From the UHGV virus genome UHGV-0466844: a stretch of 38,567 nucleotides of DNA, one strand, 5' to 3'. Made by a program: the position numbers and the translations under genes. The stretch's first letter is position 1. The number at the start of each line of letters is the position of its first letter. A model generated the notes under the pieces. It was not told the DNA's origin. It ran no database searches and saw nothing but the letters and a program-made list of their open reading frames with translations. Positions 6,675 through 37,364 of the stretch are shown here, one piece after another. The DNA comes from a virus.

Positions 6675-6703
6675 CTGCTTTCATAAACTAAAAAGAGCAA
6701 GCT

Positions 6704-6952
6704 TTACGCCTGCTCCTCCACTTCATTTAATAAATCATCCTCAATTGCCCAAACCTTTGCTTGAAAATCATCAATATCTTTACGACATTCGACGCGATTT
6801 TGACGGTACAGATTTTGGTCAGTAATCGATTGGTTAATATTTGTATTTCCAGCACTATCCGTTGTGACATTAGCATTTAGGTAAATAACTTGCTGCCCAT
6901 TAATTTTCGATTCTCCTGTAATGCTGATTGATTTTTTAGTATTTAATGCCAT
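6704..6952 (-). CDS. Hypothetical protein (82 aa) between the tail fiber and the lysis cassette
   Basis: ORF with a stop-start gap to its neighbours; no recognisable motif. Confidence 0.45.
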   Translation of the reverse strand: MALNTKKSISITGESKINGQQVIYLNANVTTDSAGNTNINQSITDQNLYRQNRVECRKDIDDFQAKVWAIEDDLLNEVEEQA

Positions 6953-23977: not shown

Positions 23978-25330
23978 CTAGCCAAAGAAAAACTTGGCTG
24001 CTTTCATTCTCTCTTCAAGATTTTGTTTACTGTACATATCGTCAGAAAATGCATATCGAGTGGCATCGATTGTGTGGTTATCTTTGTCCTCAAGTCGAGG
24101 TTTAGGATTGCCATCCTTATCCGTTTGATAGTCGATATTCTCAAATTCTCTAGCAATATTAGGTGTTCTTTCAGGATCTATACAAATAAAATCCAAGTCA
24201 TCTAACCATTGTTCTCCATACTCCACGCTATCCGGTCCTTTTTTCACTCCGAATACACGTGTCATAAAGTGGTCATTCCTCAATTCGGCTATTGACTTAG
24301 GCTCTGCTGAATCGGCATTAATTCGATCCGATTGATACCCTTTCGCACACGCTTTACTTGCAAACTCACGGTTGCTAATCTTCACACCGTAGATTTCGTC
24401 AATAGCATAGATACCATTTTTTTTCTTGTCGTAGTGCCAACGTACAAATGCCAGCGGATCAGTAGCGTAACCAAAGTCAAGACCGTTGCGGATGTTATCG
24501 AAATTCGCCACCATCTCATCAGTGATAGATCCTGGTTCGATTTGTAAGTTGTCAAAAGGAACCACACCTGAACCGATTGCTTCGCCCATATACTCCCATC
24601 GATATTTCAACGGCTTATTCTTTTTGACGTTTTCCGCTTCTTCAACAAATTTCTTTGATAAATATGGATTACCAAGATACGTTGAGTGATGAACAAAAGT
24701 ATTTGAATCGATAAAACTAGATTCATATTTTTTATTAACCCAAGACTGGCGCCGTTTGGGCGGATTGTATGAATAGTAAAAGCTATAATCAAATGGATAT
24801 ACCTTTTTTCGTTGGCTGTCGGAAGTAAATTTCCCTTCCAACTCTTCACGAAGAATTGAATTTTCAATCGTAGTGACTTCTTCTTCGGTTTTGAATTCTG
24901 CTAATTCTTCCCACCAGCCAATAGCTAGAGGAAAGTCAGCATCTTTGATTGATTTGATTTTTTCAGGATCATCAGCACCAGCAAAGTAAATCTTATTCCC
25001 CCTGGGCTTATATGTGATCTCAAGTTTTGAGTCAACAAAACGAAAAAGATGCCGAACGCCTAAGACGTTTGCAGCACCTTTAAAGTTTGCATAGGATGAT
25101 TTCAAAATTGTATTTTGTACTTTTCTTATTCCAATTGCAGATACTGGATATTCCATCACATCCAACATGATTCTCATAGGGATATGAAATGATTTACCAG
25201 ATCCACGTCCACCTTTTAGGATATATCGAAGGTGCTTCTTTTTCTTGGATGCTATCCAGAAGGATTTGAATTGATCAAGTACGATTTCCGAAAGCCTAAC
25301 CGTCGTTCGTGTCGTCGATATCATCGACAA
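23978..25330 (-). CDS. terL: Terminase large subunit
   Basis: Walker A motif GGRGSGKS near the N-terminus. 450 aa. Follows the small terminase with an overlap. Confidence 0.9.
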   Translation of the reverse strand: MSMISTTRTTVRLSEIVLDQFKSFWIASKKKKHLRYILKGGRGSGKSFHIPMRIMLDVMEYPVSAIGIRKVQNTILKSSYANFKGAANVLGVRHLFRFVDSKLEITYKPRGNKIYFAGADDPEKIKSIKDADFPLAIGWWEELAEFKTEEEVTTIENSILREELEGKFTSDSQRKKVYPFDYSFYYSYNPPKRRQSWVNKKYESSFIDSNTFVHHSTYLGNPYLSKKFVEEAENVKKNKPLKYRWEYMGEAIGSGVVPFDNLQIEPGSITDEMVANFDNIRNGLDFGYATDPLAFVRWHYDKKKNGIYAIDEIYGVKISNREFASKACAKGYQSDRINADSAEPKSIAELRNDHFMTRVFGVKKGPDSVEYGEQWLDDLDFICIDPERTPNIAREFENIDYQTDKDGNPKPRLEDKDNHTIDATRYAFSDDMYSKQNLEERMKAAKFFFG

Positions 25331-25811
25331 TCACCACTTTCTGTGCTGCATTGACATCAAGCTTATCATTGAACATTCCCAAATGACGGCCAAGCATTTC
25401 TAGTGATCTAGTCTTGTCTGCTAATTTAATTTCCCTTTCGACACTTGAGCCTTTTTCTCCCCAAGACTCTTTTACTTTGATTGACTGAATGACTGCCAGA
25501 TCATCATCGGATGCATTTTCTAAAACTGATGCATCTTTCGGATCAATCAAATCAGTTGCTTTAATAAATGCAATTTTCGCTAATTCTTGAAGCACTCGGT
25601 CTTGATTAATGCCAGTACGGCGTGACCGTTCTGCCATTTTTTGTTCAATGTACGTGCGAACCTTGACAATTGTTAACAATCTAGATCCTTGCTGATCGGC
25701 TGTTTTTGGACTATAGCCAGCTCTGATTGCAGCTTGCGTGGCATTTAGGTCAATTAAATACTCATCGGCGAATAGCTGCTGCTTTGGACTAAGTTTGGCC
25801 ATAAATGCCAC
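25296..25811 (-). CDS. terS: Terminase small subunit
   Basis: N-terminus LSPKQQLFADEYLIDLNATQAAIRAGYSPKTA is a typical Terminase_2 HTH. Confidence 0.85.
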   Translation of the reverse strand: MAFMAKLSPKQQLFADEYLIDLNATQAAIRAGYSPKTADQQGSRLLTIVKVRTYIEQKMAERSRRTGINQDRVLQELAKIAFIKATDLIDPKDASVLENASDDDLAVIQSIKVKESWGEKGSSVEREIKLADKTRSLEMLGRHLGMFNDKLDVNAAQKVVIVDDIDDTNDG

Positions 25812-25928: not shown

Positions 25929-26459
25929 TCAAACTGATAGGATTTTCTCCAGGTCATTTAAACTATCAATTCCAAATAGAAAAATTGACAGTTCTTTAGT
26001 TGCTTTACTTTCATCTCTTCTGACAGTTGATTCGTCAATACCATATAGCTCTGCAATCTCTGTTTTCTTAAACTCTCCGTGAGAAATATAAAGTTTAAAC
26101 AAAACATCAGCTCTTCTTTGTGCCATTTTCCCACTGTTTTTGCAGTGCTGAAAGAAGGATCCCCAGGTGGCGTCAAAATAATTCATCATGCGTTTGGTTT
26201 TTGCTTTGTACTTCATTAACGCTTTTAAGTTCAATTCCTCGGGATCAAAAATGATATCCTCGTACTCTTCTAGATCCTCAACTATCTCTTCGCAATGTGC
26301 TTCAAGCCATCGGTAATTACGTAGCAAAAGCTTGGTATTTCTCAATCGCCAATCTTTTGAAGAAAGATTTGTTTTATTTTCTTGTTTTTGGTGCTCTCTT
26401 AAAACAGCTTCTGCGATGATTTCTAACTGATGTTTCGTCAAATTGTTCGTTTTGGCCAT
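25929..26459 (-). CDS. ArpU/RinA-like phage late transcriptional activator (sigma region-4-like HTH)
   Basis: C-terminal HTH TEIAELYGIDESTVRRDESKATKELS. Positioned directly upstream of terS. Confidence 0.6.
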   Translation of the reverse strand: MAKTNNLTKHQLEIIAEAVLREHQKQENKTNLSSKDWRLRNTKLLLRNYRWLEAHCEEIVEDLEEYEDIIFDPEELNLKALMKYKAKTKRMMNYFDATWGSFFQHCKNSGKMAQRRADVLFKLYISHGEFKKTEIAELYGIDESTVRRDESKATKELSIFLFGIDSLNDLEKILSV

Positions 26460-27826
26460 TAATTTTTACCCCCATATTCCTTTATCTTCGCTTTTACTGC
26501 TGCCATTAATGCTTCTTGGCCAACTTCTTTGTTTTGCAAAGCACTAATGACCTGTTCATCAATCGTGTCTTTAGCCACTAGGTGATGGACGATCACAGGC
26601 TGTTTTTGACCCTGACGATCTAATCTTGCATTGGCTTGTTGGTAATATTCTAGGGACCACGTAAGCCCAAACCAAACGATGATATGCCCACCTTGCTGTA
26701 AATTTAAGCCATGCCCTGCAGATTGCGGATGTGCTAAAAGCAAAGGCAGCTTGCCTTCATTCCACTTTTGAATATCTCCATCGGACACATCAATTTTTTT
26801 CGCTTGTTTGAAACGCATCAACAGCCGATCTAAATCGTGTTTGTATTGATAAAAGACCAAGATGGGTTGTCCTTGTGCCTCTTCGACGATTCGTTCTAAA
26901 GCATTTAGCTTTTCTTGATGGATTTCCCACTCATTGCTGAATTCGTCGTATATCGCGCCATTAGCCAGCTGTAAAAGCTTATTAGAAAGTGTGGCGGCAT
27001 TGCTGGCAACCACATCGGATTCTTCAAGTTCTAGCACGTATTCTCTTTCTAGTTCTTTGTATTGCTTTCGGTCCTTCGCTGACAGTTCAACCTCGACAAC
27101 ATTGTTTATTCGTTGCGGTAGATTCAAATAATCTTTCGCTTTCATACTGACACAGATGTCACTGATTTTTTTGTAAATTGCTTCTTCTGCCCCCGGTACC
27201 AGTTGCCAACTGTAAACGATATGTCCATTCTTTTGTGCTGGGACAAAGTATCTATTGCGGTACTGGGTGATTGTTTTGCCTAGCCGTTCACCTTGGTCTA
27301 GTAAATAAATCTGTGCCCATAGGTCCAGAAGTCCATTTGGTGATGGCGTTCCGGTTAAACCAATTACTCGTTCCATCATAGGTCGAACCTTTCGCAAAGC
27401 TTTAAAACGTTTGGCACTGCTTGATTTAAAACTGGATAGCTCGTCGATGATAACCGTTTTAAATGGCCACCGTCGCTGATAATGATTAACCAACCATTCC
27501 ACATTTTCACGATTGATTAAGTACACGTCCGCTTTTTTATTTAAGGCATCTAGTCTTTGCTTTTGACTACCTAGAATCTTAGAAAAAGTCAAATGATTCA
27601 AATGATCCCACTTTTCAATTTCATCTGTCCAAGTTTTTTCTGCTACAGAAAGTGGGGCGATCACCAGTACATTTTCGATTGTTTCGAATGTATTCAACAG
27701 TTCTTCGATGGCAGTCAAACTGGATAATGTCTTGCCCAATCCCATATCTAAAAGCAATGCACAATAAGGATTGTCCAGAATGAAATTCTTTGAATACTCT
27801 TGGTACGGATGCAGTTCACATTTCAT
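26459..27826 (-). CDS. SNF2-family DEAD/DEAH helicase
   Basis: Motif I LLDMGLGKT, motif II DELSSF and the helicase C-terminal region LLLAHPQSAGHGLNLQ. Confidence 0.85.
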   Translation of the reverse strand: MKCELHPYQEYSKNFILDNPYCALLLDMGLGKTLSSLTAIEELLNTFETIENVLVIAPLSVAEKTWTDEIEKWDHLNHLTFSKILGSQKQRLDALNKKADVYLINRENVEWLVNHYQRRWPFKTVIIDELSSFKSSSAKRFKALRKVRPMMERVIGLTGTPSPNGLLDLWAQIYLLDQGERLGKTITQYRNRYFVPAQKNGHIVYSWQLVPGAEEAIYKKISDICVSMKAKDYLNLPQRINNVVEVELSAKDRKQYKELEREYVLELEESDVVASNAATLSNKLLQLANGAIYDEFSNEWEIHQEKLNALERIVEEAQGQPILVFYQYKHDLDRLLMRFKQAKKIDVSDGDIQKWNEGKLPLLLAHPQSAGHGLNLQQGGHIIVWFGLTWSLEYYQQANARLDRQGQKQPVIVHHLVAKDTIDEQVISALQNKEVGQEALMAAVKAKIKEYGGKN

Positions 27827-28115
27827 GTTTTAGATCACCTGCTTTCAATTCTTGGATAAAGTGATCTACCTCGTTTTTTGTATCGATGGCGTATACATCA
27901 ACGCCTTGTTGATTGATATAACTTTTTATTTTCATCTGATTTTTTCGTAAAGACTCTCCTGGTCTTTTCAATTCAATAAAAAATGTACTGCCTCGAAATA
28001 TTACGATTCTGTCCGGTACGCCTCTTGTGCCTGGGCTTACCCATTTGTAACATAGCCCACCGATTTTCTTCACCTGTCTGACAAGATATTTTTCGATGTC
28101 GTTTTCAATTTGCAT
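27816..28115 (-). CDS. VRR-NUC domain nuclease
   Basis: GVPDRIV...FIELKRPGE...L...Q motifs. Preferred start is MQIENDIE with RBS GGAGGGcactATG; the track ORF extends to a TTG at 28157 that lacks an RBS. Confidence 0.75.
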   Translation of the reverse strand: MQIENDIEKYLVRQVKKIGGLCYKWVSPGTRGVPDRIVIFRGSTFFIELKRPGESLRKNQMKIKSYINQQGVDVYAIDTKNEVDHFIQELKAGDLKHEM

Positions 28116-28129
28116 AGTGCCCTCCTTTT

Positions 28130-28477
28130 GTGTAACTTTTTTTTTCAACTCACTCAAGCTTTATATAGGAATAAAGGGGGATATACATATAACGTTTATA
28201 TACATATTCTTTATTTCTTTTAAGAAGAGAAGATAGAAAAAAAGGTTACAAAGTTACATTTAGGCTGTATACGTTGATATATAAGGTTTTACACTGTAAC
28301 TTTTGTGTAACTTTTCGCGCTTTTTGTAACTTTTTAAAGTTACATTTTCTTAAAAAGTAACTTTGTAACTCTTCTTTTTATCTGATTAATTTTTTTACAG
28401 TTCAGATTTCCGGTTACAAAGTTACATTTATAGGACTGTAACCTTTTTTTTTCGTTAAAAGTTACATTAAAGTTACG
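28130..28477. repeat. AT-rich iteron array: >12 copies of GTTACA / AAAGTTAC in both orientations, including an 18-bp direct repeat GGTTACAAAGTTACATTT (x2) and an (ATATACATAT)x2 element. Putative origin of replication.
   Basis: Counted directly in the non-coding gap between the primase 3' end and the VRR-NUC start. Confidence 0.6.
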
Positions 28478-30886
28478 CTAAAATCCTGCATTCCCTGTAT
28501 CAATTCCCTGCCAACATTTCACGACTTTCCCGTCTACCCTTGTCGGCTTATTTTCAAATCCAAGTTCCTTCATCCGATTGACAAAATTATTCCTGGTCAT
28601 CGGTTTATACCCAGAACCTTTGCAATAGGTGACGTAATCGCTATAGGCTTCCGCCGCTGGGGTTTTCTTATCATCCCCCAACTCGCATTCATCTTCGATA
28701 AATAGTGATAACACATCATTGCCTTGAACCCATTTTTCCACGTTATCTAGCATCCCATTTGAAACAGAAAAACCATTCTGATTAAATGCACGACGTAATC
28801 CCTGCATCGCTTTATTAAAGATCCCCGCCGTTTCCTGCTTCATCACAGCCAAAGGAAATTGCTCCTTGACCTCTTTAGTCAACACCTCATCAATGTTCAG
28901 GATAATCAGACGACGCTTAAGCCCTCCACTGAAATCACGCATGGCCGGAAGCTCATTCATTGCGAAGGTCAACTTTGCATAATTGTAGAAATAGATTGGG
29001 TCTAAGTTTTTCCGATCAGCATAGATCGTATCTTCACCAGTAAGCTGTTTTAATAAAGAACCATCTGCTAGGTACTCAGGCTTTGCATCGGTATCAAAGT
29101 TTGCTGTCTTTCGATATAATCCTGCCGGCGCAAATCGTTCGTTCATCAGGTTTTTCAACGTAACAGCGGAGTAATTATCACGACCGATCATATCTTTCAA
29201 AATATTCACTAAAGTTGATTTCCCCGTACCAGCTTTCCCGTGAATAAACAGCATTTTTTGGAAATTGTACTCGCGATAAAAATTGTAGCCAAACCATTCG
29301 TAGACAAAGTCTGCATTTTCCTCCCCGACGATTCGCTTTAAAAATCCGTCAAATACCGGGCAGTCGGCAGAAGAGTCATAAACTACTGGATGCGAGACAC
29401 GGGCATAGAGTTTTTTGTCAAACCCTTGAGAAAAGAAATCTTTTTTAATGTCATATACGCCGTTAGCTAACACCAACTTGTTCAGATCCATTTCGTGAAA
29501 TTCATTCTCCGTGTAAGCCAGGTTCTTAATACTGGCGATTGCCTCAGTAATATAGCGGATTTTTGATTCTTTGATCAGTTTTTTGTTCGTGATATAACTT
29601 CTTAAAAATTCATCGACACCACCACACCAAATGCCAGAAGAAGGATCATACCTTAAAAATTCAGAACCATCATAAAAGATAGGAATTTCGGATAGTACCT
29701 CTTGCGCCAATAAGTACGTGTTGATCACTGGTGCCCCATTTTGATCAAAAGTAAGCCATTTCGTTTGGATGGATTCTTCTTCATTGATTTCAAATGCATC
29801 AAATTCCTCAAGTGCCTCACCTAGCCGCTCTTTTTGCATCTGTCCCATGACCAATTCATCTTCTTGAAGAAATTCGTTCATGGCCCGATAGCTTTTCATT
29901 TTTTGCGGCGGCGTCCCAGCTTTAGCATCATCATCTAAATCACCAAATTTATGAATACGCACGAGGTCAAAAGCATTCACCAGTTGATCACCGACCGGAT
30001 CGGTTCCGTGATGGCTGTATGCAAACTTGTCATCATAAATGACCAAACCACCGCTGGTGGACCCACCTAAATAGGTCCAGCGATCATCGCGACCTGTGGG
30101 TCCGTAGATTTCTGGCAAGAACGTTTCTATCGCAGACACGATATCATACGAGCGACAGAATGCCCCGACAACGCCTTTTTTCTCTAACGGATCTCCTGCT
30201 TTTTTAGCTTGGCTTTCCCTAATTGAATGCCCTCGGCTGCTCTCTGGCCAAAAACTGGAATCGCGCCAATCCTCGTATCCTGACAAAACTTCATCTGGAT
30301 CTACCCAAGGCAAATCCAAGTAATCTGTAAAATATTCGCCATCCAATGAATGGCTAGGGAAATACATCAATCGCTCTGCTTGATAGGTCGTATCGTCGAA
30401 ATTATCCATCCCAAAGATTTCCGCTAGCTTGCGGGCTAAAGGTTCATATTCTTCTGCTGTCACAGGCCGTTCTAGTGGAATGATCAAGCGATAACGCGGA
30501 CCTTTAACTAAATGGCTATGCGTCGTGTAAATAGCTGCTGCATGATCAAACAACAACTTGATGTCTTCCCAGAAATCCAACGTTGTGCTATCGGCATCAA
30601 GCGTAACTAGACTGCGCTGTTGCGCATGTCCGCGTTTTCGCTTCCCTTCTTTTAACCAGCCACCGACAAAGCCTCCAACATCTTTGATCTCGTCTTGGCG
30701 TGACTTTGGCATCTTTTTGTAGTCACTGACTGTCTCTTGTGTAACAGTAGGTGTTGCTAAACGTTGTAAAAAATCAGACCAGTTTTGGCTACGATTTTTC
30801 CATTTCTTTTCTGTTTTGGAACTACCAATGGCGAGATGGATCTCACCGTTGTATTTCAGATTTGGCAACTTTTTAGGTTGTTCCAT
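28478..30886 (-). CDS. Phage/plasmid primase-helicase (P4/D5 family: N-terminal primase domain, D5_N-like region, P-loop NTPase)
   Basis: 802 aa. Walker A motif FIHGKAGTGKST. D5_N-like region upstream of it. Gene context (polA, SSB, nuclease). Confidence 0.8.
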   Translation of the reverse strand: MEQPKKLPNLKYNGEIHLAIGSSKTEKKWKNRSQNWSDFLQRLATPTVTQETVSDYKKMPKSRQDEIKDVGGFVGGWLKEGKRKRGHAQQRSLVTLDADSTTLDFWEDIKLLFDHAAAIYTTHSHLVKGPRYRLIIPLERPVTAEEYEPLARKLAEIFGMDNFDDTTYQAERLMYFPSHSLDGEYFTDYLDLPWVDPDEVLSGYEDWRDSSFWPESSRGHSIRESQAKKAGDPLEKKGVVGAFCRSYDIVSAIETFLPEIYGPTGRDDRWTYLGGSTSGGLVIYDDKFAYSHHGTDPVGDQLVNAFDLVRIHKFGDLDDDAKAGTPPQKMKSYRAMNEFLQEDELVMGQMQKERLGEALEEFDAFEINEEESIQTKWLTFDQNGAPVINTYLLAQEVLSEIPIFYDGSEFLRYDPSSGIWCGGVDEFLRSYITNKKLIKESKIRYITEAIASIKNLAYTENEFHEMDLNKLVLANGVYDIKKDFFSQGFDKKLYARVSHPVVYDSSADCPVFDGFLKRIVGEENADFVYEWFGYNFYREYNFQKMLFIHGKAGTGKSTLVNILKDMIGRDNYSAVTLKNLMNERFAPAGLYRKTANFDTDAKPEYLADGSLLKQLTGEDTIYADRKNLDPIYFYNYAKLTFAMNELPAMRDFSGGLKRRLIILNIDEVLTKEVKEQFPLAVMKQETAGIFNKAMQGLRRAFNQNGFSVSNGMLDNVEKWVQGNDVLSLFIEDECELGDDKKTPAAEAYSDYVTYCKGSGYKPMTRNNFVNRMKELGFENKPTRVDGKVVKCWQGIDTGNAGF

Positions 30887-30941: not shown

Positions 30942-31325
30942 TTACCGAACTTCGACATCCGGAATCAACGCACTAGGTTTCAATGTGATTTTAAACCGAT
31001 ACTGATTGGCTTCTGTCCACTCTTGTTGCTCCACGATATATACAGTAGTCGGAGACAACCCAAGAAAATGCTTTTGAAACTCGTCTTCGCCTGTCTTGGC
31101 TGTGATTTCCAACTGGTTGTCAGCTGTATCTGCTGTGATTGAAAAGTTGCCTTCAACTGTGTAAAGAACTTCGTCTGTAACTGTATTGATAAAAGTTACC
31201 TTGCGTAAAATCTTGAAATTATCAGCATCTTGGCTAAGATTATTTGAAGCGACATCCGCATCATTACATCCAGCTAAAACAACTAACCCGATTGATGCTA
31301 AAATAATTAATAATAGTTTTTTCAT
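30942..31325 (-). CDS. Secreted lipoprotein (127 aa), unknown function
   Basis: Signal peptide MKKLLLIILASIGLVVLAGC with lipobox LAGC. Confidence 0.7.
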   Translation of the reverse strand: MKKLLLIILASIGLVVLAGCNDADVASNNLSQDADNFKILRKVTFINTVTDEVLYTVEGNFSITADTADNQLEITAKTGEDEFQKHFLGLSPTTVYIVEQQEWTEANQYRFKITLKPSALIPDVEVR

Positions 31326-32690: not shown

Positions 32691-34598
32691 CTAATCTTTC
32701 ATGTAGTATTTCGTCTCAAAACCGGCTGCCGCTAACGGTAATCCTTCTGCCCATTCAGGTACAACTGACATGATTTGATTCATTTCTTCAACGGAATGCA
32801 CGCCATCTGGAACTTCTGCAACAGCCTCATCATGTACATGAAAGACAACGGGATAGCCCTCTTTTTCCAGTCTCATCATTGCTTCTGCTAAAATATCTCT
32901 GGCTGTCGCTTGGACAATGTTTTCCACTAGCTTTCCACCATAGGTCTGCTGTTTCGTGAAAACGACTTTGTCCCCCTGTCCTTCATAAAAGATTGCTGGG
33001 CCATAGTTTCCTTCTTCTAGATGCGCTTTTGCATAAGCTAGTTTGCGACCACTTGGCAGCTGAATAAAAAGAAATCCGTTCTTTTTGTAGAACTTTAACC
33101 CTTTAGGCCCTTTTTTGATGCCACCGTTTTGAAGGCAGGCAATGACTGCTTTTTGTGTGTCATACCAAAACGAGCGAATGCGTTTGTTGGCATCTCGCCA
33201 TCGATCGACGATATCCTGCAGTTCATGTTCTTCAATACCATTATCTAGCGCCCCCATTGCTTTTAGCGCACCAGGACCACCTTGATAGCCTAGTGCCAGA
33301 GTTGCCACTTTTCCCCGTTGCCGCATGGCTTTACCTTCATTATTTTTCCAATCATAGCTTTCTACCTCCCCAAGGTGAAACATCTGTGCCGCAGTCGCTT
33401 CATAGATTTTCCCGTGCGTTCGAAATACATCCAGTACCCACTCTTGATTTGCATACCAAGCAATCACACGGGCTTCAATCGCTGAAAAGTCACTAATGAT
33501 AAATCGATGCCCTTCTTTTGCGACCAATCCTGTCCGGATCAATTGTTTCAACGTATCCGGCACACTGTCATACATCCACTCGATTGCTTCTGTATCTTTA
33601 GCTTTGATCAATTCTCTTGCAAAGCCGATTTCATCCAAGTAGTTTCTCGGCAAATTTTGAACTTGTAACAATCTCCCAGCCCAACGTCCCGTCCGATTAG
33701 CCCCATAAAATTGCAGAATGCCATGAATTCGTCCGTCACGACATCGGGCGCCATCCATCATGAGATATTTTTTTGTGCTTGAATTTGAGAGATTCAACCG
33801 TATTCTTAGCGCCCTCTCAACGTTTTCTGGCAAATTACCACTATTGACTGCCGCAGTAACTAACTCTTTACCAAGTGTTTCAAAAGGGGCTCCTTGTCCT
33901 TTTAACCACTCTTTTAATTGTTTCAAACTATTGGGATTTTCTAAACCGGTCACTTGCTTGAGTTCATTCATATTTTTGGCTGTTAACTCCTCCATGATTT
34001 CAATCGCTGCACTGGCAAGTTCGTGATCGATTTCAGCCCCACGATCATTAATCCGTTGATCCAATGAATAAAGTGCCCATTCACTCTCTTTTACTGGAAA
34101 ACGATTTAATTTGTCCGCTATTGCCATTTCAACCACTACGTCTTGGATACAATAATAGGTAAACGTCTGCCATTTTTCTGGATCATGATCTGGAAGATTC
34201 CTTGTCCGCATCCCATTTGCCTTAGTCGGTTTACAAGGTTTCGAAAAATAATTAATTAATTGTGTCCCACGAGTATCTTTTTGTTGTTCAATATTCAAGT
34301 ATTTTGCACATTGTCCTAATGAAGCTGGTAAGCCTAATTCATTCGCATGGACCATCGTACAATGCCATTGTTCTGGATCTAAATAGTAAGGAATTCCCAA
34401 GTGTTTAGATAAGCAAACTCGTTCGAATTGCGCGTTAAAGGCAATCTTGAGAACATTTTTATCCGTTAATGCATGCAGTATATCTTCCGGAATTTCACTG
34501 ATTGTCATGTCTATGCATTCAACAGTTCCACCATCGACAGAATAGGCAAAAAGCAATATTTCAAAGTTTGGACTTTCTGCATATTTGTAGACACCCAC
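32691..34598 (-). CDS. Family A DNA polymerase (phage-type, with an N-terminal 3'-5' exonuclease-like region and no 5' nuclease domain)
   Basis: Motif A-like ISDFSAIEARVIAWYANQEW and motif C VVFHVHDEAVAEV. GTG start. Confidence 0.85.
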   Translation of the reverse strand: MGVYKYAESPNFEILLFAYSVDGGTVECIDMTISEIPEDILHALTDKNVLKIAFNAQFERVCLSKHLGIPYYLDPEQWHCTMVHANELGLPASLGQCAKYLNIEQQKDTRGTQLINYFSKPCKPTKANGMRTRNLPDHDPEKWQTFTYYCIQDVVVEMAIADKLNRFPVKESEWALYSLDQRINDRGAEIDHELASAAIEIMEELTAKNMNELKQVTGLENPNSLKQLKEWLKGQGAPFETLGKELVTAAVNSGNLPENVERALRIRLNLSNSSTKKYLMMDGARCRDGRIHGILQFYGANRTGRWAGRLLQVQNLPRNYLDEIGFARELIKAKDTEAIEWMYDSVPDTLKQLIRTGLVAKEGHRFIISDFSAIEARVIAWYANQEWVLDVFRTHGKIYEATAAQMFHLGEVESYDWKNNEGKAMRQRGKVATLALGYQGGPGALKAMGALDNGIEEHELQDIVDRWRDANKRIRSFWYDTQKAVIACLQNGGIKKGPKGLKFYKKNGFLFIQLPSGRKLAYAKAHLEEGNYGPAIFYEGQGDKVVFTKQQTYGGKLVENIVQATARDILAEAMMRLEKEGYPVVFHVHDEAVAEVPDGVHSVEEMNQIMSVVPEWAEGLPLAAAGFETKYYMKD

Positions 34599-34712: not shown

Positions 34713-35204
34713 ATGAATATTTATCAAATGCAAGCGCTAGACTATGTCCTGAAGGAAAATAAGTATCTCAATAAAGTAGATTTCAACTATATAATTATTT
34801 TCAAAATGAATAATGAACTTTATGAAGCAGACTTTTTGGAAGTAGACGAAAGTGGTGTCATTCTTGAAAATCCTACAATCACTCCAACAGGAGGAATCTC
34901 TCAGTTCGAATACTATTATGACTCCTATAAAGAAAGTCCTCTTAAGAAGGCTAATATTCAGGTATTCCCTAGACAAGGTGGTCCTTACTCTAGAAAACTC
35001 CAAAATATTCTAATTGAAGGAAAATCACTTCATTTAATCCACAAATCTCTTCTTGAAGTAATTGAGAACACAGAAGGTACCAATAACTTAGATCCTATTA
35101 TTTACAACGTTAAATCCTTAACTCATGACTACCAACTTCCTTATATGCTAGTAGACGAATCCACTGAATTTGAATGGATTTCTTTAGATAAAAAAGAAAA
35201 CTAA
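34713..35204 (+). CDS. Orphan plus-strand protein (163 aa, AT-rich, no recognisable domain): a moron inserted between polA and the SSB
   Basis: Own promoter, strong RBS and a bidirectional terminator. Opposite orientation to the entire replication operon. Lower GC than its neighbours. Confidence 0.6.
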   Translation: MNIYQMQALDYVLKENKYLNKVDFNYIIIFKMNNELYEADFLEVDESGVILENPTITPTGGISQFEYYYDSYKESPLKKANIQVFPRQGGPYSRKLQNILIEGKSLHLIHKSLLEVIENTEGTNNLDPIIYNVKSLTHDYQLPYMLVDESTEFEWISLDKKEN

Positions 35205-35244: not shown

Positions 35245-35832
35245 TTATGCAAACATGTCGTCGTCACTGCCGTCCTCTTCTTCTTCATCCCAGTCAAGAT
35301 CACCGAAATCAGATTCAGCATTGGCACGTCCGCCAAGGAAGTCACCTTTTCCTGTTGTCAAAATGTTATTCAGACCAGCAGTTACGCCTTTATTTCCTGC
35401 TGTGTTATAAGCGTAAAAGTTAATTGACGCAATCGCATAAACGCCAGAGTAAACATCGTCCGCATCATCTGTTTTAACAAGCATGCCATCTTCACGCTTC
35501 ACTACTTGGGGTTTCGTTTTAGAAGAGACGTTGATAAACATCGCATTTTCAAATTCAGGGCGCTCTTCTGTATCCATTTCTTCATCACCATCACGCAGAG
35601 ACGTTTTCAAACGATCAAATTTAACACCTTTCAACTTGTCTGATTTCCCTGCTTCATAAGCTGCTTTAATTGCGCTGTTCATTGCTTTTAGAGTTTCCTT
35701 GTCATCCTTCGAAATAATTAGCATTGTAGAATATTTTGCCTCTTGTCCTTCAAATGCATGAGGTTCCAACACGTGGACAAAGCTCAACCGTACTTTATTT
35801 GTAATTACTTTCGTTCCATTCACTTTTGCCAT
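35245..35832 (-). CDS. Phage single-stranded DNA-binding protein (DUF2815 / gp2.5-like) with an acidic C-terminal tail ending in F
   Basis: N-terminal [13 protein letters not shown] motif. C-terminus [16 protein letters not shown]. Confidence 0.65.
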
Positions 35833-36191: not shown

Positions 36192-37364
36192 TCAGCCCAC
36201 TCCTTCGAAATCATTTAGCGCATCTTCCATGCTACTAAGCGCTGGCCGCTTGTCCTTTTCAGTAACAAGCACGGGCTTGCCTTCTGGCTTCACGATAAAA
36301 TCGCTGGCCAGTTCTGCAAATTTCTTTTTACCAACAACTTTTTCTAACTGCCCAATTGCTTGTAAGGCACGAGGTTTAAGAATTTCATCATCATCAAAAC
36401 CTTCTGCCTCCAATAGGAAGAGCAAGGATTCTTCATCACTGATTTTTCGATTACTTCGCCCAGCGACAACTTTCCATCCCGGAAACTCCTCGCCTTCTGT
36501 CAACGCTTTATTCAGTGCGTACTCTTCAACATGATCTAACCACTTTTTAATTTCAGGTGCCCGATCAAGAATTTCAGCAATCTCTTCGTTTGTCAGAAGA
36601 GGTGATTCCTTTAATTCGTATTTATCGACTAACGAAAAGTTCCTTTCCGCCCTTAACCGCAGTTGCGCTCGAACCTTGGAGAATTTAACCACATCATCAG
36701 TGATTGTCCATTCTCCTGTACCTTCCCAGGCTTGTGCTGCCCGTGGCGCTACATAGTTGTCAGCCCAGTAAAGTAACTCTTCTTTATCAATCTCAAAGGT
36801 TGAAACATTATCCAAACGAGGCTGAACAATTGTCATACGCACCGTTTCAAACTCATAAATGATGTCGTATTTGTCTACCGCCCCAAGCGCATAGAGCATT
36901 AACTGCGGGTTGAGATACGCGTCAACAGGAACACCTTTGCCGTACTTCAAGTCAATGATCTCGATCGTATTGTCTGCCAACACGACCACATCCGAGGTGC
37001 CAAATCCTTCGGGTACCCATTTTGTGAAATCAACTTTTTGTTCAAGTTCGATCACAGCATCTTGATAATGGTTAACACGTTCTTCAACCAAGTCACAGTA
37101 AGCTTCAACATAATCTTCCATGGATTGATCATAGTAGCTGTTTTCAGATCGAAACTTTTTCAATTTGGTATTCACTGAACGAGTAGCCATCAACTTGAAT
37201 CTTTTTGCCAAAGCTAACTCTGCCAGTTCATGGGCGGCAGTCCCTTCTTCGGCAAATGAACTGCCTCGATCTTTGAACTGTTCTTCTAATCGTGCGATAG
37301 GTGGACAAATCAGCCACCTATGTGCACTACTAGCCCCTAAAAGGGCATGACTTCCCACTGGCAT
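36192..37364 (-). CDS. PD-(D/E)XK-family nuclease (DUF2800-like), putative recombination exonuclease
   Basis: N-terminus LLGASSAHRWLICPP resembles DUF2800/Cas4-like phage nucleases. Commonly clustered with a DUF2815 SSB and polA. Confidence 0.65.
   Translation of the reverse strand: MPVGSHALLGASSAHRWLICPPIARLEEQFKDRGSSFAEEGTAAHELAELALAKRFKLMATRSVNTKLKKFRSENSYYDQSMEDYVEAYCDLVEERVNHYQDAVIELEQKVDFTKWVPEGFGTSDVVVLADNTIEIIDLKYGKGVPVDAYLNPQLMLYALGAVDKYDIIYEFETVRMTIVQPRLDNVSTFEIDKEELLYWADNYVAPRAAQAWEGTGEWTITDDVVKFSKVRAQLRLRAERNFSLVDKYELKESPLLTNEEIAEILDRAPEIKKWLDHVEEYALNKALTEGEEFPGWKVVAGRSNRKISDEESLLFLLEAEGFDDDEILKPRALQAIGQLEKVVGKKKFAELASDFIVKPEGKPVLVTEKDKRPALSSMEDALNDFEGVG

What the first reader, a model, noticed from the sequence alone, without database searches (positions are those of the whole stretch)
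28130..28477. Dense iteron array (GTTACA / AAAGTTAC, >12 copies, both orientations) plus AT-rich (ATATACATAT)x2 element: putative replication origin for the primase-helicase
The 350-bp non-coding gap between the VRR-NUC start and the primase stop contains an 18-bp perfect direct repeat GGTTACAAAGTTACATTT (28244 and 28412), many inverted copies (GTAACTTTT), long T-runs and an AT-rich direct repeat. This is the architecture of iteron-type origins bound by P4/D5-family primase-helicases or a dedicated initiator. It may also act as an incompatibility or partition determinant.
Basis: partly seen in the sequence, partly recalled or inferred. Interest (0 to 1): 0.55.

Follow-up and report, generated by a model that had tools for sequence, protein, structure and literature searches.

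The report
Iteron replication origin after primase-helicase gene
The 362-bp gap just after this Enterococcus prophage's primase-helicase gene is very probably the phage's replication origin, where many short binding sites for that enzyme flank an easily melted AT-rich stretch; it is a well-supported but unsurprising example of a layout already proven in staphylococcal pathogenicity islands.

Summary
The gap 28116-28477 holds 14 GTTAC cores, 7 per strand, where 0.48 are expected (P 2e-16). It is the only short-repeat array in the 38.6-kb window and contains the window's least stable 40-bp duplex.

Thirty-five related loci from Enterococcus, Streptococcus, Listeria, Lactococcus and Lactobacillaceae show the same synteny (primase-helicase, then a gap, then VRR-NUC in all but one locus cut by its contig end). 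Every gap has the same layout: paired short sites in fixed positions and orientations, a ~100-bp AT-rich block, then a last site or pair just before the VRR-NUC ribosome-binding site. The site sequence changes between lineages (at least 15 variants) while its slots stay fixed.

Among the segments tested, the last 36 residues of the helicase track the site sequence best (AUC 0.96); VRR-NUC, SNF2 and the primase domain track it less well. That tail is the recognition helix and wing of a predicted winged helix. The closest solved structure is SaPI5 PriRep5, which binds iterons immediately downstream of its own gene.

Best reading (about 0.8): a SaPI-type origin for a self-loading D5-like primase-helicase. 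No experiment exists. It is a new member of a known kind. The partition suggestion has no support.

The parts
28478..30886 (-). Primase-helicase gene (802 aa): an AEP-like primase N-domain, then D5_N, a DUF5906 SF3 ATPase and a Pox_D5 C-terminal domain. Proposed initiator and self-loading replicative helicase.
   Evidence: Pfam and PHROG hits. The AlphaFold2 model has mean pLDDT 86. The best PDB fold match is SaPI5 PriRep5 7OLA (TMt 0.74, E 3e-21), followed by ASFV PrimPol and poxvirus D5/E5. phmmer to 7OLA gives E 1e-11 over residues 534-773.
28481..28774 (-). C-terminal domain (about residues 705-802), predicted winged helix. The recognition helix is about 765-774 (TRNNFVNRMK) and the beta-hairpin wing 778-796. 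The last 36 residues (28481-28588) are the proposed specificity determinant.
   Evidence: Secondary structure is H725-733, E735-743, H744-758, H765-774, E778-784, E787-796. Pox_D5 matches 722-791, with a weak RFX_DNA_binding hit. The tip tracks the iteron class with AUC 0.96.
28412..28477 (.). Iteron cluster I, starting at the first base after the stop codon. Five GTTAC cores at 28472, 28461, 28438, 28421 and 28413, including the double site GGTTACAAAGTTACATTTA (28412-28430).
   Evidence: The same slots are occupied in L011, L010, L003 and L001 by their own motifs.
28296..28369 (.). Iteron cluster II. Six cores at 28365, 28357, 28339, 28326, 28307 and 28296: an inverted double site (8-bp spacing), a palindromic pair TGTAACTTT-n-AAAGTTACA, and a direct pair at 11-bp spacing.
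28244..28262 (.). Iteron cluster III. This is the second copy of the 19-bp double site (cores 28245 and 28253) and forms the left border of the AT-rich block.
   Evidence: family D2, 100% identical to 28412-28430. The equivalent last pair lies about 100-110 bp before the final site in all relatives.
28141..28243 (.). AT-rich block, the proposed DNA unwinding element. It includes ATATACATAT twice (28181-28190, 28198-28207) and T/A runs.
   Evidence: It contains the least stable 40-bp duplex of the window, 28182-28221. An equivalent block is nearly identical among phages with different iterons. GTATAT/ATATAC is enriched 11-fold in this part of the gap and is present in 19 of 21 loci.
28131..28139 (.). 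Right-hand iteron (TGTAACTTT on the + strand, AAAGTTACA on the gene strand). It is inverted relative to cluster III and lies 6 nt upstream of the VRR-NUC ribosome-binding site.
   Evidence: A last site or pair in this position occurs in every relative, carrying its own motif.
27816..28115 (-). VRR-NUC nuclease gene, the conserved downstream neighbour. It is not the determinant of the iteron sequence.
   Evidence: Pfam and PHROG hits. VRR-NUC proteins that are 96% identical sit next to different iteron classes. AUC is only 0.69.

Best explanation
The gap is the phage's origin of replication, of the type used by self-loading SF3 (D5-like) initiator-helicases.

Shown by computation:
- Thirteen short sites (core GTTAC, consensus AAAGTTACA) in three clusters lie on one side of a ~100-bp AT-rich block. 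That block contains the least stable 40-bp duplex in the window.
- One inverted site lies on the other side of the block.
- The arrangement and its position directly 3' of the primase-helicase gene are conserved in relatives.
- The site sequence changes together with the winged-helix tip of the helicase.

Inferred mechanism:
1. The C-terminal winged helix of the 802-aa primase-helicase binds the sites cooperatively. The paired sites at 8- and 11-bp spacing suggest adjacent subunits of an oligomer.
2. Helicase rings assemble on both sides of the AT-rich block and melt it.
3. The SF3 motor then unwinds.
4. The enzyme's own N-terminal primase lays primers for the phage PolA.

One consequence follows. 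The helicase tail plus the array form one specificity cassette, so phages with different cassettes should not cross-activate each other's origins.
For: 1. Local statistics. There are 14 GTTAC cores where 0.48 are expected. This is the only such array in the window. It also holds the minimum of duplex stability.

2. Conservation of place. All 30 loci have primase-helicase, then a gap of 270-560 bp, then VRR-NUC, then SNF2. Five more distant loci also have a gap after the primase-helicase gene; VRR-NUC or a same-sized gene and then SNF2 follow in four of them, and the fifth is cut by its contig end.

3. Every gap holds 3-11 exact copies (9-16 allowing one mismatch) of a lineage-specific 7-mer, which occurs 0-2 times in the remaining ~9 kb of the locus (for the five distant loci).

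4. Site slots are conserved while the motif switches. Examples are +,+ pairs at 9 bp, -,- pairs at 12 bp, a 45-bp spacer, and a ~100-bp AT block before the last inverted site or pair. In the alignment of L002, L014, L019 and L022 the AT block is nearly identical, but each slot reads GTATCCA, GTAACAC or GTCACAC.

5. Co-variation. The last 36 aa of the helicase separate same-iteron from different-iteron pairs with AUC 0.96 (0.92 within the VapE type). The other segments score lower: primase domain 0.81, helicase core 0.89, VRR-NUC 0.69, SNF2 0.67. In those other segments, pairs up to 97-100% identical carry different iterons. An unbiased scan over about 9 kb of L002 finds only the gene's 3' end plus the gap to be associated with iteron class. 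The late-regulator gene is not associated.

6. In relatives 90-99% identical in the gap, 41 gap positions vary but only 1 falls in the 70 core nucleotides (7.9 expected, P 0.0016).

7. The tail is the recognition helix and wing of a predicted winged helix. The closest solved protein is SaPI5 PriRep5. Its C-terminal winged helix binds iterons located immediately downstream of its gene around an AT-rich region (PMC9371898; also PMC7581432).

8. Starting from the DNA alone, 41 of 120 viral-contig hits to GTTACAAAGTTACA lie in arrays of at least 9 GTTAC. Of 22 genes that end at such arrays, 9 are VapE-like, 6 match DUF5906 and 2 are DUF927 plus the Cch helix-turn-helix domain.

9. There is no Rfam family, no sigma-70-like promoter or terminator on the gene strand, and no DnaA box in the gap.
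Against: - There is no experimental evidence of binding, melting or initiation for this phage or any close relative. I found no paper on it.
- The helicase tail is physically adjacent to the array, so part of the co-variation could be linkage. Concerted replacement of about 10 dispersed sites cannot be explained that way, however.
- A trans factor encoded more than 4 kb away was not excluded.
- In this window only one exact site lies to the right of the AT-rich block, whereas SaPI origins are described with at least two on each side.
- In phage P4 the iteron cluster directly 3' of the alpha gene is crr, a cis-required region, and the start site (ori) is elsewhere.
- Some GTTAC arrays in viral contigs lie next to tail tube genes.
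Confidence: 0.8

Rival explanations
1. The array is a cis-acting accessory region like P4 crr. The primase-helicase binds it and it is required in cis, but DNA synthesis starts at another place in the genome.
For: In the P4 record, crr (ten 8-bp type-1 repeats in both orientations, pairs at 9-bp spacing) lies directly 3' of the alpha gene, and ori lies 2.1 kb on the other side. The window has an inverted GTTAC pair at 31177-31199, upstream of the primase gene.
Against: No second cluster exists in the window: the maximum 6-mer count elsewhere is 5, against 12 in the gap. The relatives have 0-2 exact sites in the rest of each locus. The gap itself holds the AT-rich, least stable block, flanked by inverted sites. 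The closest homologue, PriRep5, uses a single origin 3' of its gene.
Confidence: 0.07
2. The repeats are operator sites of a transcription regulator that controls VRR-NUC, SNF2 and the late genes. The regulator could be the phrog_1558/36 protein at 25929-26459 or an early-region repressor. On this reading the element is not an origin.
For: The last site lies 6 nt from the VRR-NUC ribosome-binding site in every relative. A putative regulator gene lies just upstream of terS.
Against: No sigma-70-like promoter is predicted on the gene strand in 27700-28800. Thirteen to fourteen sites spread over 340 bp are far more than an operator needs. Iteron class does not track the regulator gene, VRR-NUC or SNF2, but does track the helicase tail. 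A dual role, in which the helicase represses downstream genes, is not excluded.
Confidence: 0.06
3. The sites are bound by another, unidentified phage or host protein encoded outside the 8-kb neighbourhood analysed. This could be a separate initiator or a nucleoid protein, and the helicase would be recruited indirectly.
For: The association scan covered only about -4 kb to +2.5 kb. Physical linkage could inflate the tail-array correlation.
Against: The helicase tail is a winged helix homologous to the origin-binding domain of PriRep5. Two unrelated helicase modules (D5-type and VapE-type) each carry their own array at the same place, as do DUF927/Cch-type helicases. No DnaA boxes are present.
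Confidence: 0.05
4. The array is a packaging (pac/cos) recognition site or a partition centromere.
For: Repeated short sites are also typical of terS-binding pac sites and of parS/centromere arrays.
Against: terS lies 2.3 kb downstream (25296-25811), with two genes and a putative regulator in between. No ParA or ParB genes were seen in the ORFs examined. Plasmids gave no similarity. The array tracks the helicase tail.
Confidence: 0.02

Closest known systems
SaPI replication origins with Rep / PriRep5 self-loading helicases (Staphylococcus aureus pathogenicity islands)
   Same: - The origin lies immediately downstream of the (pri)rep gene.
- It consists of 6-12 penta- or hexanucleotide iterons in both orientations around an AT-rich region.
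- The helicase's C-terminal winged helix recognises the iterons.
- Iterons and C-terminal domains differ between islands (PMC9371898; PMC7581432).
- PriRep5 is the best sequence and fold match of the window protein.
   Different: - This element belongs to a complete temperate siphophage with its own PolA, SSB and exonuclease, not to a satellite.
- Sequence identity to PriRep5 is only about 19%.
- The AT-rich block is not central: 13 sites lie on one side and 1 on the other.
- There are more sites (14).
- Binding and melting have not been tested.
Phage P4 alpha protein with ori and crr
   Same: - A fused primase plus D5-type SF3 helicase plus C-terminal origin-binding domain.
- Short (8-bp) iterons in both orientations, with pairs at 9-bp spacing.
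- One cluster (crr) lies directly 3' of the alpha gene.
- NCBI names the homologues 'phage/plasmid primase, P4 family'.
   Different: - P4 has two clusters (ori and crr) 4.5 kb apart; the window has one.
- P4 has a terminator between alpha and crr; none is predicted here.
- From my own knowledge, the P4 primase domain is of a different type (DnaG-like). Here the invariant DxD and H residues suggest an AEP (inference).
SCCmec Cch2 helicase binding site
   Same: A D5-family helicase binds short direct repeats in the intergenic region just downstream of its own gene (PMC7581432).
   Different: Only three iterons are present, the primase is a separate protein, and replication of the element has not been demonstrated.
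Non-coding origins 3' of the replication protein gene in other elements (Streptococcus thermophilus phage Sfi21 and archaeal plasmid pRN1)
   Same: A non-coding origin lies 3' of the replication protein gene. For pRN1, the abstract of PMC4234260 states that 166 bp downstream of orf904 are essential. The Sfi21 case, with phage-encoded resistance when the origin is cloned, is from my memory; I could not retrieve a paper.
   Different: The proteins and repeat structures differ. No sequence relationship was tested here.

Membership tests
SaPI-type origin (self-loading Rep/PriRep helicase origin) | [quoted passage not shown] | tested here: met
   The first site starts at the base after the stop codon (28477). 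The same holds in 35 related loci.
SaPI-type origin (self-loading Rep/PriRep helicase origin) | Multiple (6-12) short penta- or hexanucleotide iterons | tested here: met
   There are 14 GTTAC cores (consensus AAAGTTACA), P 2e-16. This is slightly more than the published range.
SaPI-type origin (self-loading Rep/PriRep helicase origin) | An AT-rich region flanked by iterons in opposite orientation, at least two on each side | tested here: inconclusive
   The AT-rich block 28141-28243 is flanked by an inverted arrangement: a pair at 28245/28253 on one side and a single site at 28132 on the other. Only one exact site lies on the right in this window. The VapE-type relatives have two there.
SaPI-type origin (self-loading Rep/PriRep helicase origin) | The initiator is an SF3/MCM-like helicase with a C-terminal winged helix that determines origin specificity | tested here: met
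   The fold match to PriRep5 has TMt 0.74. A winged-helix secondary structure spans 725-796. The tail co-varies with the iteron class. Specificity is inferred from co-variation, not measured.
SaPI-type origin (self-loading Rep/PriRep helicase origin) | The helicase binds and melts the origin, and the fragment supports replication with pri/rep supplied in trans | not testable with these tools
   This needs EMSA or footprinting, KMnO4 probing and a plasmid replication assay.
P4-type bipartite origin (ori + crr) | Two separated iteron clusters, both required in cis | tested here: not met
   Only one cluster exists in the 38.6-kb window. Relatives have 0-2 stray exact sites outside the gap. The P4 layout was read from its record.
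DnaA-dependent origin (oriC-like or lambda-like host-dependent origin) | Clustered DnaA boxes (TTATCCACA) next to the unwinding element | tested here: not met
   No match with up to 1 mismatch occurs between 22099 and 32500.
Structured non-coding RNA | A match to a curated RNA family, or a structure not explained by the DNA repeats | tested here: not met
   No Rfam match at E up to 1. The strong single-strand fold (z = -4.5) is made of the inverted iterons themselves.

The most novel reading that the evidence does not exclude
The last ~35 residues of the helicase plus the adjacent array may form a small swappable 'specificity cassette' with a readable recognition code.

In the VapE-type relatives the two variable residues of the wing motif GYG-x-Q-x-A map one-to-one onto the iteron:
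- L,T with GTATCCA
- V,V with GTAACAC
- I,S or I,T with GTCACAC
- R,S with GGTAGAC
- A,R with GTACCCA
- H,R with GGACACA

The rest of the protein and the AT-rich block stay more than 90% identical.

If this holds, origin specificity could be predicted from sequence for thousands of Firmicute phages and satellites. That specificity would determine replication cross-talk, satellite hijacking and superinfection interference. Hybrid origins such as L014 would mark recent specificity switches.
Probability: 0.45. Interest if true: 0.55.

Novelty: new member of a known kind. Interest (0 to 1): 0.35.

Why it matters
It gives a concrete, testable origin for a replication module found widely in temperate phages of Enterococcus, Streptococcus, Listeria, Lactococcus and lactobacilli: PolA, primase-helicase, VRR-NUC, SNF2. 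I found no mapped origin for this module in the searchable literature. It extends the SaPI 'helicase gene followed by its own iterons' rule to true phages and to two unrelated helicase modules.

The many natural specificity variants, with conserved site positions, make a ready-made data set for studying how a winged helix reads DNA. They could also help explain how phages avoid or exploit each other's replication proteins.

Practical uses:
- The fragment could interfere with the phage when cloned in multicopy, by titrating the initiator.
- It could provide a phage-dependent conditional replicon for enterococci.

Tried and rejected
- Rfam scan of 27700-28900: nothing.
- Promoter and terminator scan: one promoter-like site on the antisense strand and none on the gene strand, fewer than in shuffles. 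A promoter reading is therefore not supported.
- DnaA boxes: none in or near the gap.
- Plasmid collection, blastn with the gap: no match.
- Single-strand DNA fold: strong (z = -4.5) but fully explained by the inverted iterons. I do not take it as evidence for a hairpin origin or an RNA.
- Tandem repeat finder: sees only the 11-bp pair, because the array is dispersed and not tandem.
- Homologue search with the C-terminal 143 aa alone: only 2 hits. I repeated it with the full protein.
I used only the subset lying in dense arrays.
- L029 comes from a contig of the same length as the window (38567), but it is a different phage, 63-68% identical in patches.
- The SaPI origin papers PMC1964853 and PMC3804134 are not held. 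Their content is cited through PMC9371898 and PMC7581432.
- One look-up of a distant homologue (P0097) found no contig.

Full report
**1. What is in the window**

All genes around the finding are on the minus strand and belong to a temperate siphophage or prophage. In order of transcription they are:

| Gene | Coordinates |
|---|---|
| DUF2800/PD-(D/E)XK exonuclease | 36192-37364 |
| Enc34/gp2.5-like SSB | 35245-35832 |
| Family-A DNA polymerase | 32691-34598 |
| VG64-like protein | 30942-31325 |
| Primase-helicase (802 aa; D5_N, DUF5906, Pox_D5) | 28478-30886 |
| The gap | 28116-28477 |
| VRR-NUC | 27816-28115 |
| SNF2 helicase | 26459-27826 |
| Putative regulator | 25929-26459 |
| terS | 25296-25811 |
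| terL | 23978-25330 |

The closest named homologue of the primase-helicase is from Enterococcus mundtii (95% identity). IMG/VR contigs reach 98-99%.

**2.

- The gap (362 bp) contains 14 GTTAC cores, seven on each strand. The remaining 38.2 kb contain 53. The expectation for the gap is 0.48, P = 2.4e-16.
- Ten of the window's 14 AAGTTAC copies are in the gap.
- The 19-bp double site GGTTACAAAGTTACATTTA occurs twice, at 28244 and 28412, with an inverted copy near 28353-28370. ATATACATAT occurs twice.
- An unbiased scan for the commonest 6-mer per 350 bp gives 12 in the gap and at most 5 anywhere else.
- The least stable 40-bp duplex of the whole window is 28182-28221, inside the AT-rich block.

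**3. Anatomy on the gene strand**

- Directly after the stop codon come five sites (cluster I, 28412-28477).
- A 41-bp spacer follows, then six sites (cluster II, 28296-28369). These include an 8-bp-spaced pair, a palindromic pair and an 11-bp-spaced pair.
- A 35-bp spacer follows, then an 8-bp-spaced pair (cluster III, 28245-28257).
- Next is a ~100-bp AT-rich block (28141-28243).
- One last site in the opposite orientation (28131-28139) lies 6 nt before the GGAGG of VRR-NUC.

**4. Relatives**

- Streptococcus phage 315.6 (primase-helicase 57% identical over its full length) and Enterococcus phage phiFL4A (N-terminal 360 aa 81% identical, the rest unrelated) both have a 330-365-bp gap at the same place, with the same layout but other motifs: ACGTAAC and GGATAC.
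- I collected 30 loci from phage records, GTDB genomes and IMG/VR and five more distant ones through exact-protein look-ups.
- The 30 loci all keep primase-helicase, gap, VRR-NUC and SNF2 in that order. Four of the five distant loci keep a gap followed by VRR-NUC (or a same-sized unannotated gene) and SNF2; the fifth is cut by its contig end just after the gap.
- In the 16 non-redundant loci analysed, each gap holds 3-11 exact (9-16 allowing one mismatch) copies of a lineage-specific 7-mer that occurs 0-2 times in the remaining ~9 kb.
- At least 15 motif variants were seen:
  - With D5-type helicases: AAAGTTAC, AAAGTAAC, GGTAACC, ACGTAAC, TGGTAGC, AATGTAAT, TGGGCCA, TCTGACAC, AAGTGGAAA.
  - With VapE-type helicases: GTATCCA, GTAACAC, GTCACAC, GGTAGAC, GTACCCA, GGACACA.

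**5. Conserved syntax, switching words**

Site positions and orientations are nearly superimposable between phages with different motifs. For example, positions relative to the stop codon are:

| Locus | Motif | Site positions and strands |
|---|---|---|
| L002 | GTATCCA | 58+ 79- 102+ 111+ 131- 143- 188+ 197+ 299- 308- |
| L014 | GTAACAC | 32+ 54- 77+ 86+ 107- 119- 164+ 173+ 284- |
| L019 | GTCACAC | 32+ 54- 77+ 86+ 107- 118- 163+ 172+ 275- 284- |

The D5-type loci show the same kind of agreement: the window, L011 and L001 all have a -,- pair, a +,+ pair, a -,- pair, ~105 bp of AT-rich DNA, then one + site.

In the nucleotide alignment of L002, L014, L019 and L022, the ~95-bp AT-rich block and the flanking genes are almost identical while every site slot carries the lineage's own motif. 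Concerted replacement of about ten dispersed sites is what selection by one sequence-specific binding protein predicts. Simple linkage does not explain it.

**6. Which protein**

- Pairwise identities of six protein segments were compared with identity of iteron class in 24 non-redundant loci:

| Segment | AUC, all loci | AUC, VapE type only |
|---|---|---|
| Last 36 residues of the helicase | 0.96 | 0.92 |
| Proximal C-terminal domain | 0.90 | 0.75 |
| Helicase core | 0.89 | 0.74 |
| Primase domain | 0.81 | 0.72 |
| VRR-NUC | 0.69 | 0.64 |
| SNF2 | 0.67 | 0.66 |

- In every segment other than the tail, pairs 97-100% identical carry different iterons.
- VRR-NUC proteins 96% identical to phiFL4A's sit next to AAAGTTACC and AAAGTAAC arrays.
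- A nucleotide association scan along about 9 kb of L002 finds a positive signal only from the 3' end of the helicase gene through the gap. The small ORFs upstream, VRR-NUC, SNF2 and the regulator gene show none.
- In the VapE-type tails, the two variable residues of GYG-x-Q-x-A map one-to-one onto the motif.
- In the D5 type, changes in the helix TRNNFVNRM and the following hairpin accompany motif changes.

**7. The protein**

- An AlphaFold2 model built from 34 homologues (mean pLDDT 86) shows helix-strand-helix-helix-hairpin at residues 725-796, that is, a winged helix. The variable tail forms its recognition helix and wing.
- The best PDB fold matches are the SaPI5 primase-helicase PriRep5 (7OLA/7OM0; TMt 0.74, rmsd about 3.9 Å), then ASFV PrimPol and poxvirus D5/E5.
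- PriRep5 is also the best sequence match (E 1e-11, residues 534-773).
- According to PMC9371898, SaPI Rep proteins are self-loading helicases. Their C-terminal winged helix recognises penta- or hexanucleotide iterons. Six to twelve iterons lie immediately downstream of rep around an AT-rich region, with inverted iterons on both sides, and PriRep5 binds its cognate origin.
- PMC7581432 reports the same rule for the D5-family helicase Cch2.

**8. Further support**

- In relatives 90-99% identical in the gap, 41 gap positions vary but only one lies in the 70 core nucleotides (7.9 expected, P = 0.0016).
- GTATAT/ATATAC is enriched 11-fold in the AT-rich part of the gaps and is present there in 19 of 21 loci, whatever the iteron. 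This fits a common unwinding element.
- Starting from the DNA alone, 41 of 120 viral-contig hits to GTTACAAAGTTACA lie in dense GTTAC arrays. Of 22 genes that end at such arrays, 9 are VapE-like, 6 match DUF5906 and 2 are DUF927 plus the Cch helix-turn-helix domain.

**9. Rivals**

- P4-like crr. In P4 the cluster 3' of alpha is crr and ori lies elsewhere. Here no second cluster exists, and the unstable block lies inside the element.
- Operator array. No promoter is predicted on the gene strand, there are too many sites, and there is no association with the regulator gene. A side role in expression of the downstream gene is possible because the last site abuts the ribosome-binding site.
- Another binding protein encoded further away. 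This is not excluded, but it is unnecessary.
- pac or partition. The position and the association argue against it, and plasmids gave no match.
- RNA. No Rfam hit. The strong single-strand fold is the inverted iterons themselves.
- No DnaA boxes are present.

**10. Verdict**

- Shown: the array, its conservation, its syntax, the co-variation with the helicase tail, the fold, and the unstable block.
- Inferred: binding, ring loading on both sides of the AT block, melting and priming.

It is a new member of a known kind. I found no description of this origin in the searchable literature, but a specialist would have expected it. The more interesting by-product is the natural series of specificity switches, which suggests a simple recognition code.

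Noticed in passing
window 28478-30886 (breakpoint near 29750-29810, about aa 360-380); L002 5001-7433: The primase-helicase is mosaic. The N-terminal primase domain is ~80% identical between this phage and phiFL4A-type phages. The C-terminal ~440 aa are unrelated modules: D5_N/DUF5906/Pox_D5 here and VapE-like there. Each module comes with its own iteron array.
   Followed up: partly
window 31177-31199: An inverted GTTAC pair (TGTAAC...AAAAGTTAC) lies inside the VG64-like gene, 300 bp upstream of the primase-helicase start. It includes one of only four exact AAGTTAC copies outside the gap. Relatives show no equivalent second cluster, so it is probably chance.
   Followed up: partly
L014 about 6700-6745 (right-hand sites before the VRR-NUC RBS): In L014 the main array is GTAACAC, but the pair to the right of the AT-rich block reads GTGCCAC/GTGTGAC, the GTCACAC type. 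This may be a hybrid origin left by recombination inside the conserved AT-rich block.
   Followed up: no
L081 284-520, L100 1725-1963, L106 991-1227, L118 4401-4604: Dense GTTAC arrays (10 copies per 350 bp) lie directly downstream of ~211-215-aa genes in several viral contigs; three of the scanned products match tail tube proteins (PF04630). They are not next to a helicase gene and remain unexplained.
   Followed up: no
AT-rich part of the gaps, e.g. window 28181-28207, L002 7620-7690: GTATAT/ATATAC is enriched 11-fold and present in 19 of 21 loci irrespective of iteron class. In Enterococcus VapE-type phages a ~95-bp block, including a GC-rich TTCGCGCGCGCGA tail, is almost invariant. It may be more than a passive unwinding element, for example a priming site or a host-factor site.
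   Followed up: partly
window 30942-31325: The gene just upstream of the primase-helicase matches Pfam Phage_VG64 (E 4e-45) and the PHROG family annotated 'recombination directionality factor'. It sits in the middle of the replication module.
   Followed up: no
window 34713-35204 (+ strand): A 163-aa ORF lies on the opposite strand between the SSB and PolA genes, in an AT-rich stretch (34755-34814 is the least stable 60-bp duplex of the window). I did not examine it further. No iteron-like repeats occur there.
   Followed up: no
L029 (IMGVR_UViG_2597490170_000002): This contig has exactly the window's length (38567 bp) but is a different phage: only patches of 63-68% nucleotide identity, and CGGACACA iterons. 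The equal length is a coincidence.
   Followed up: yes
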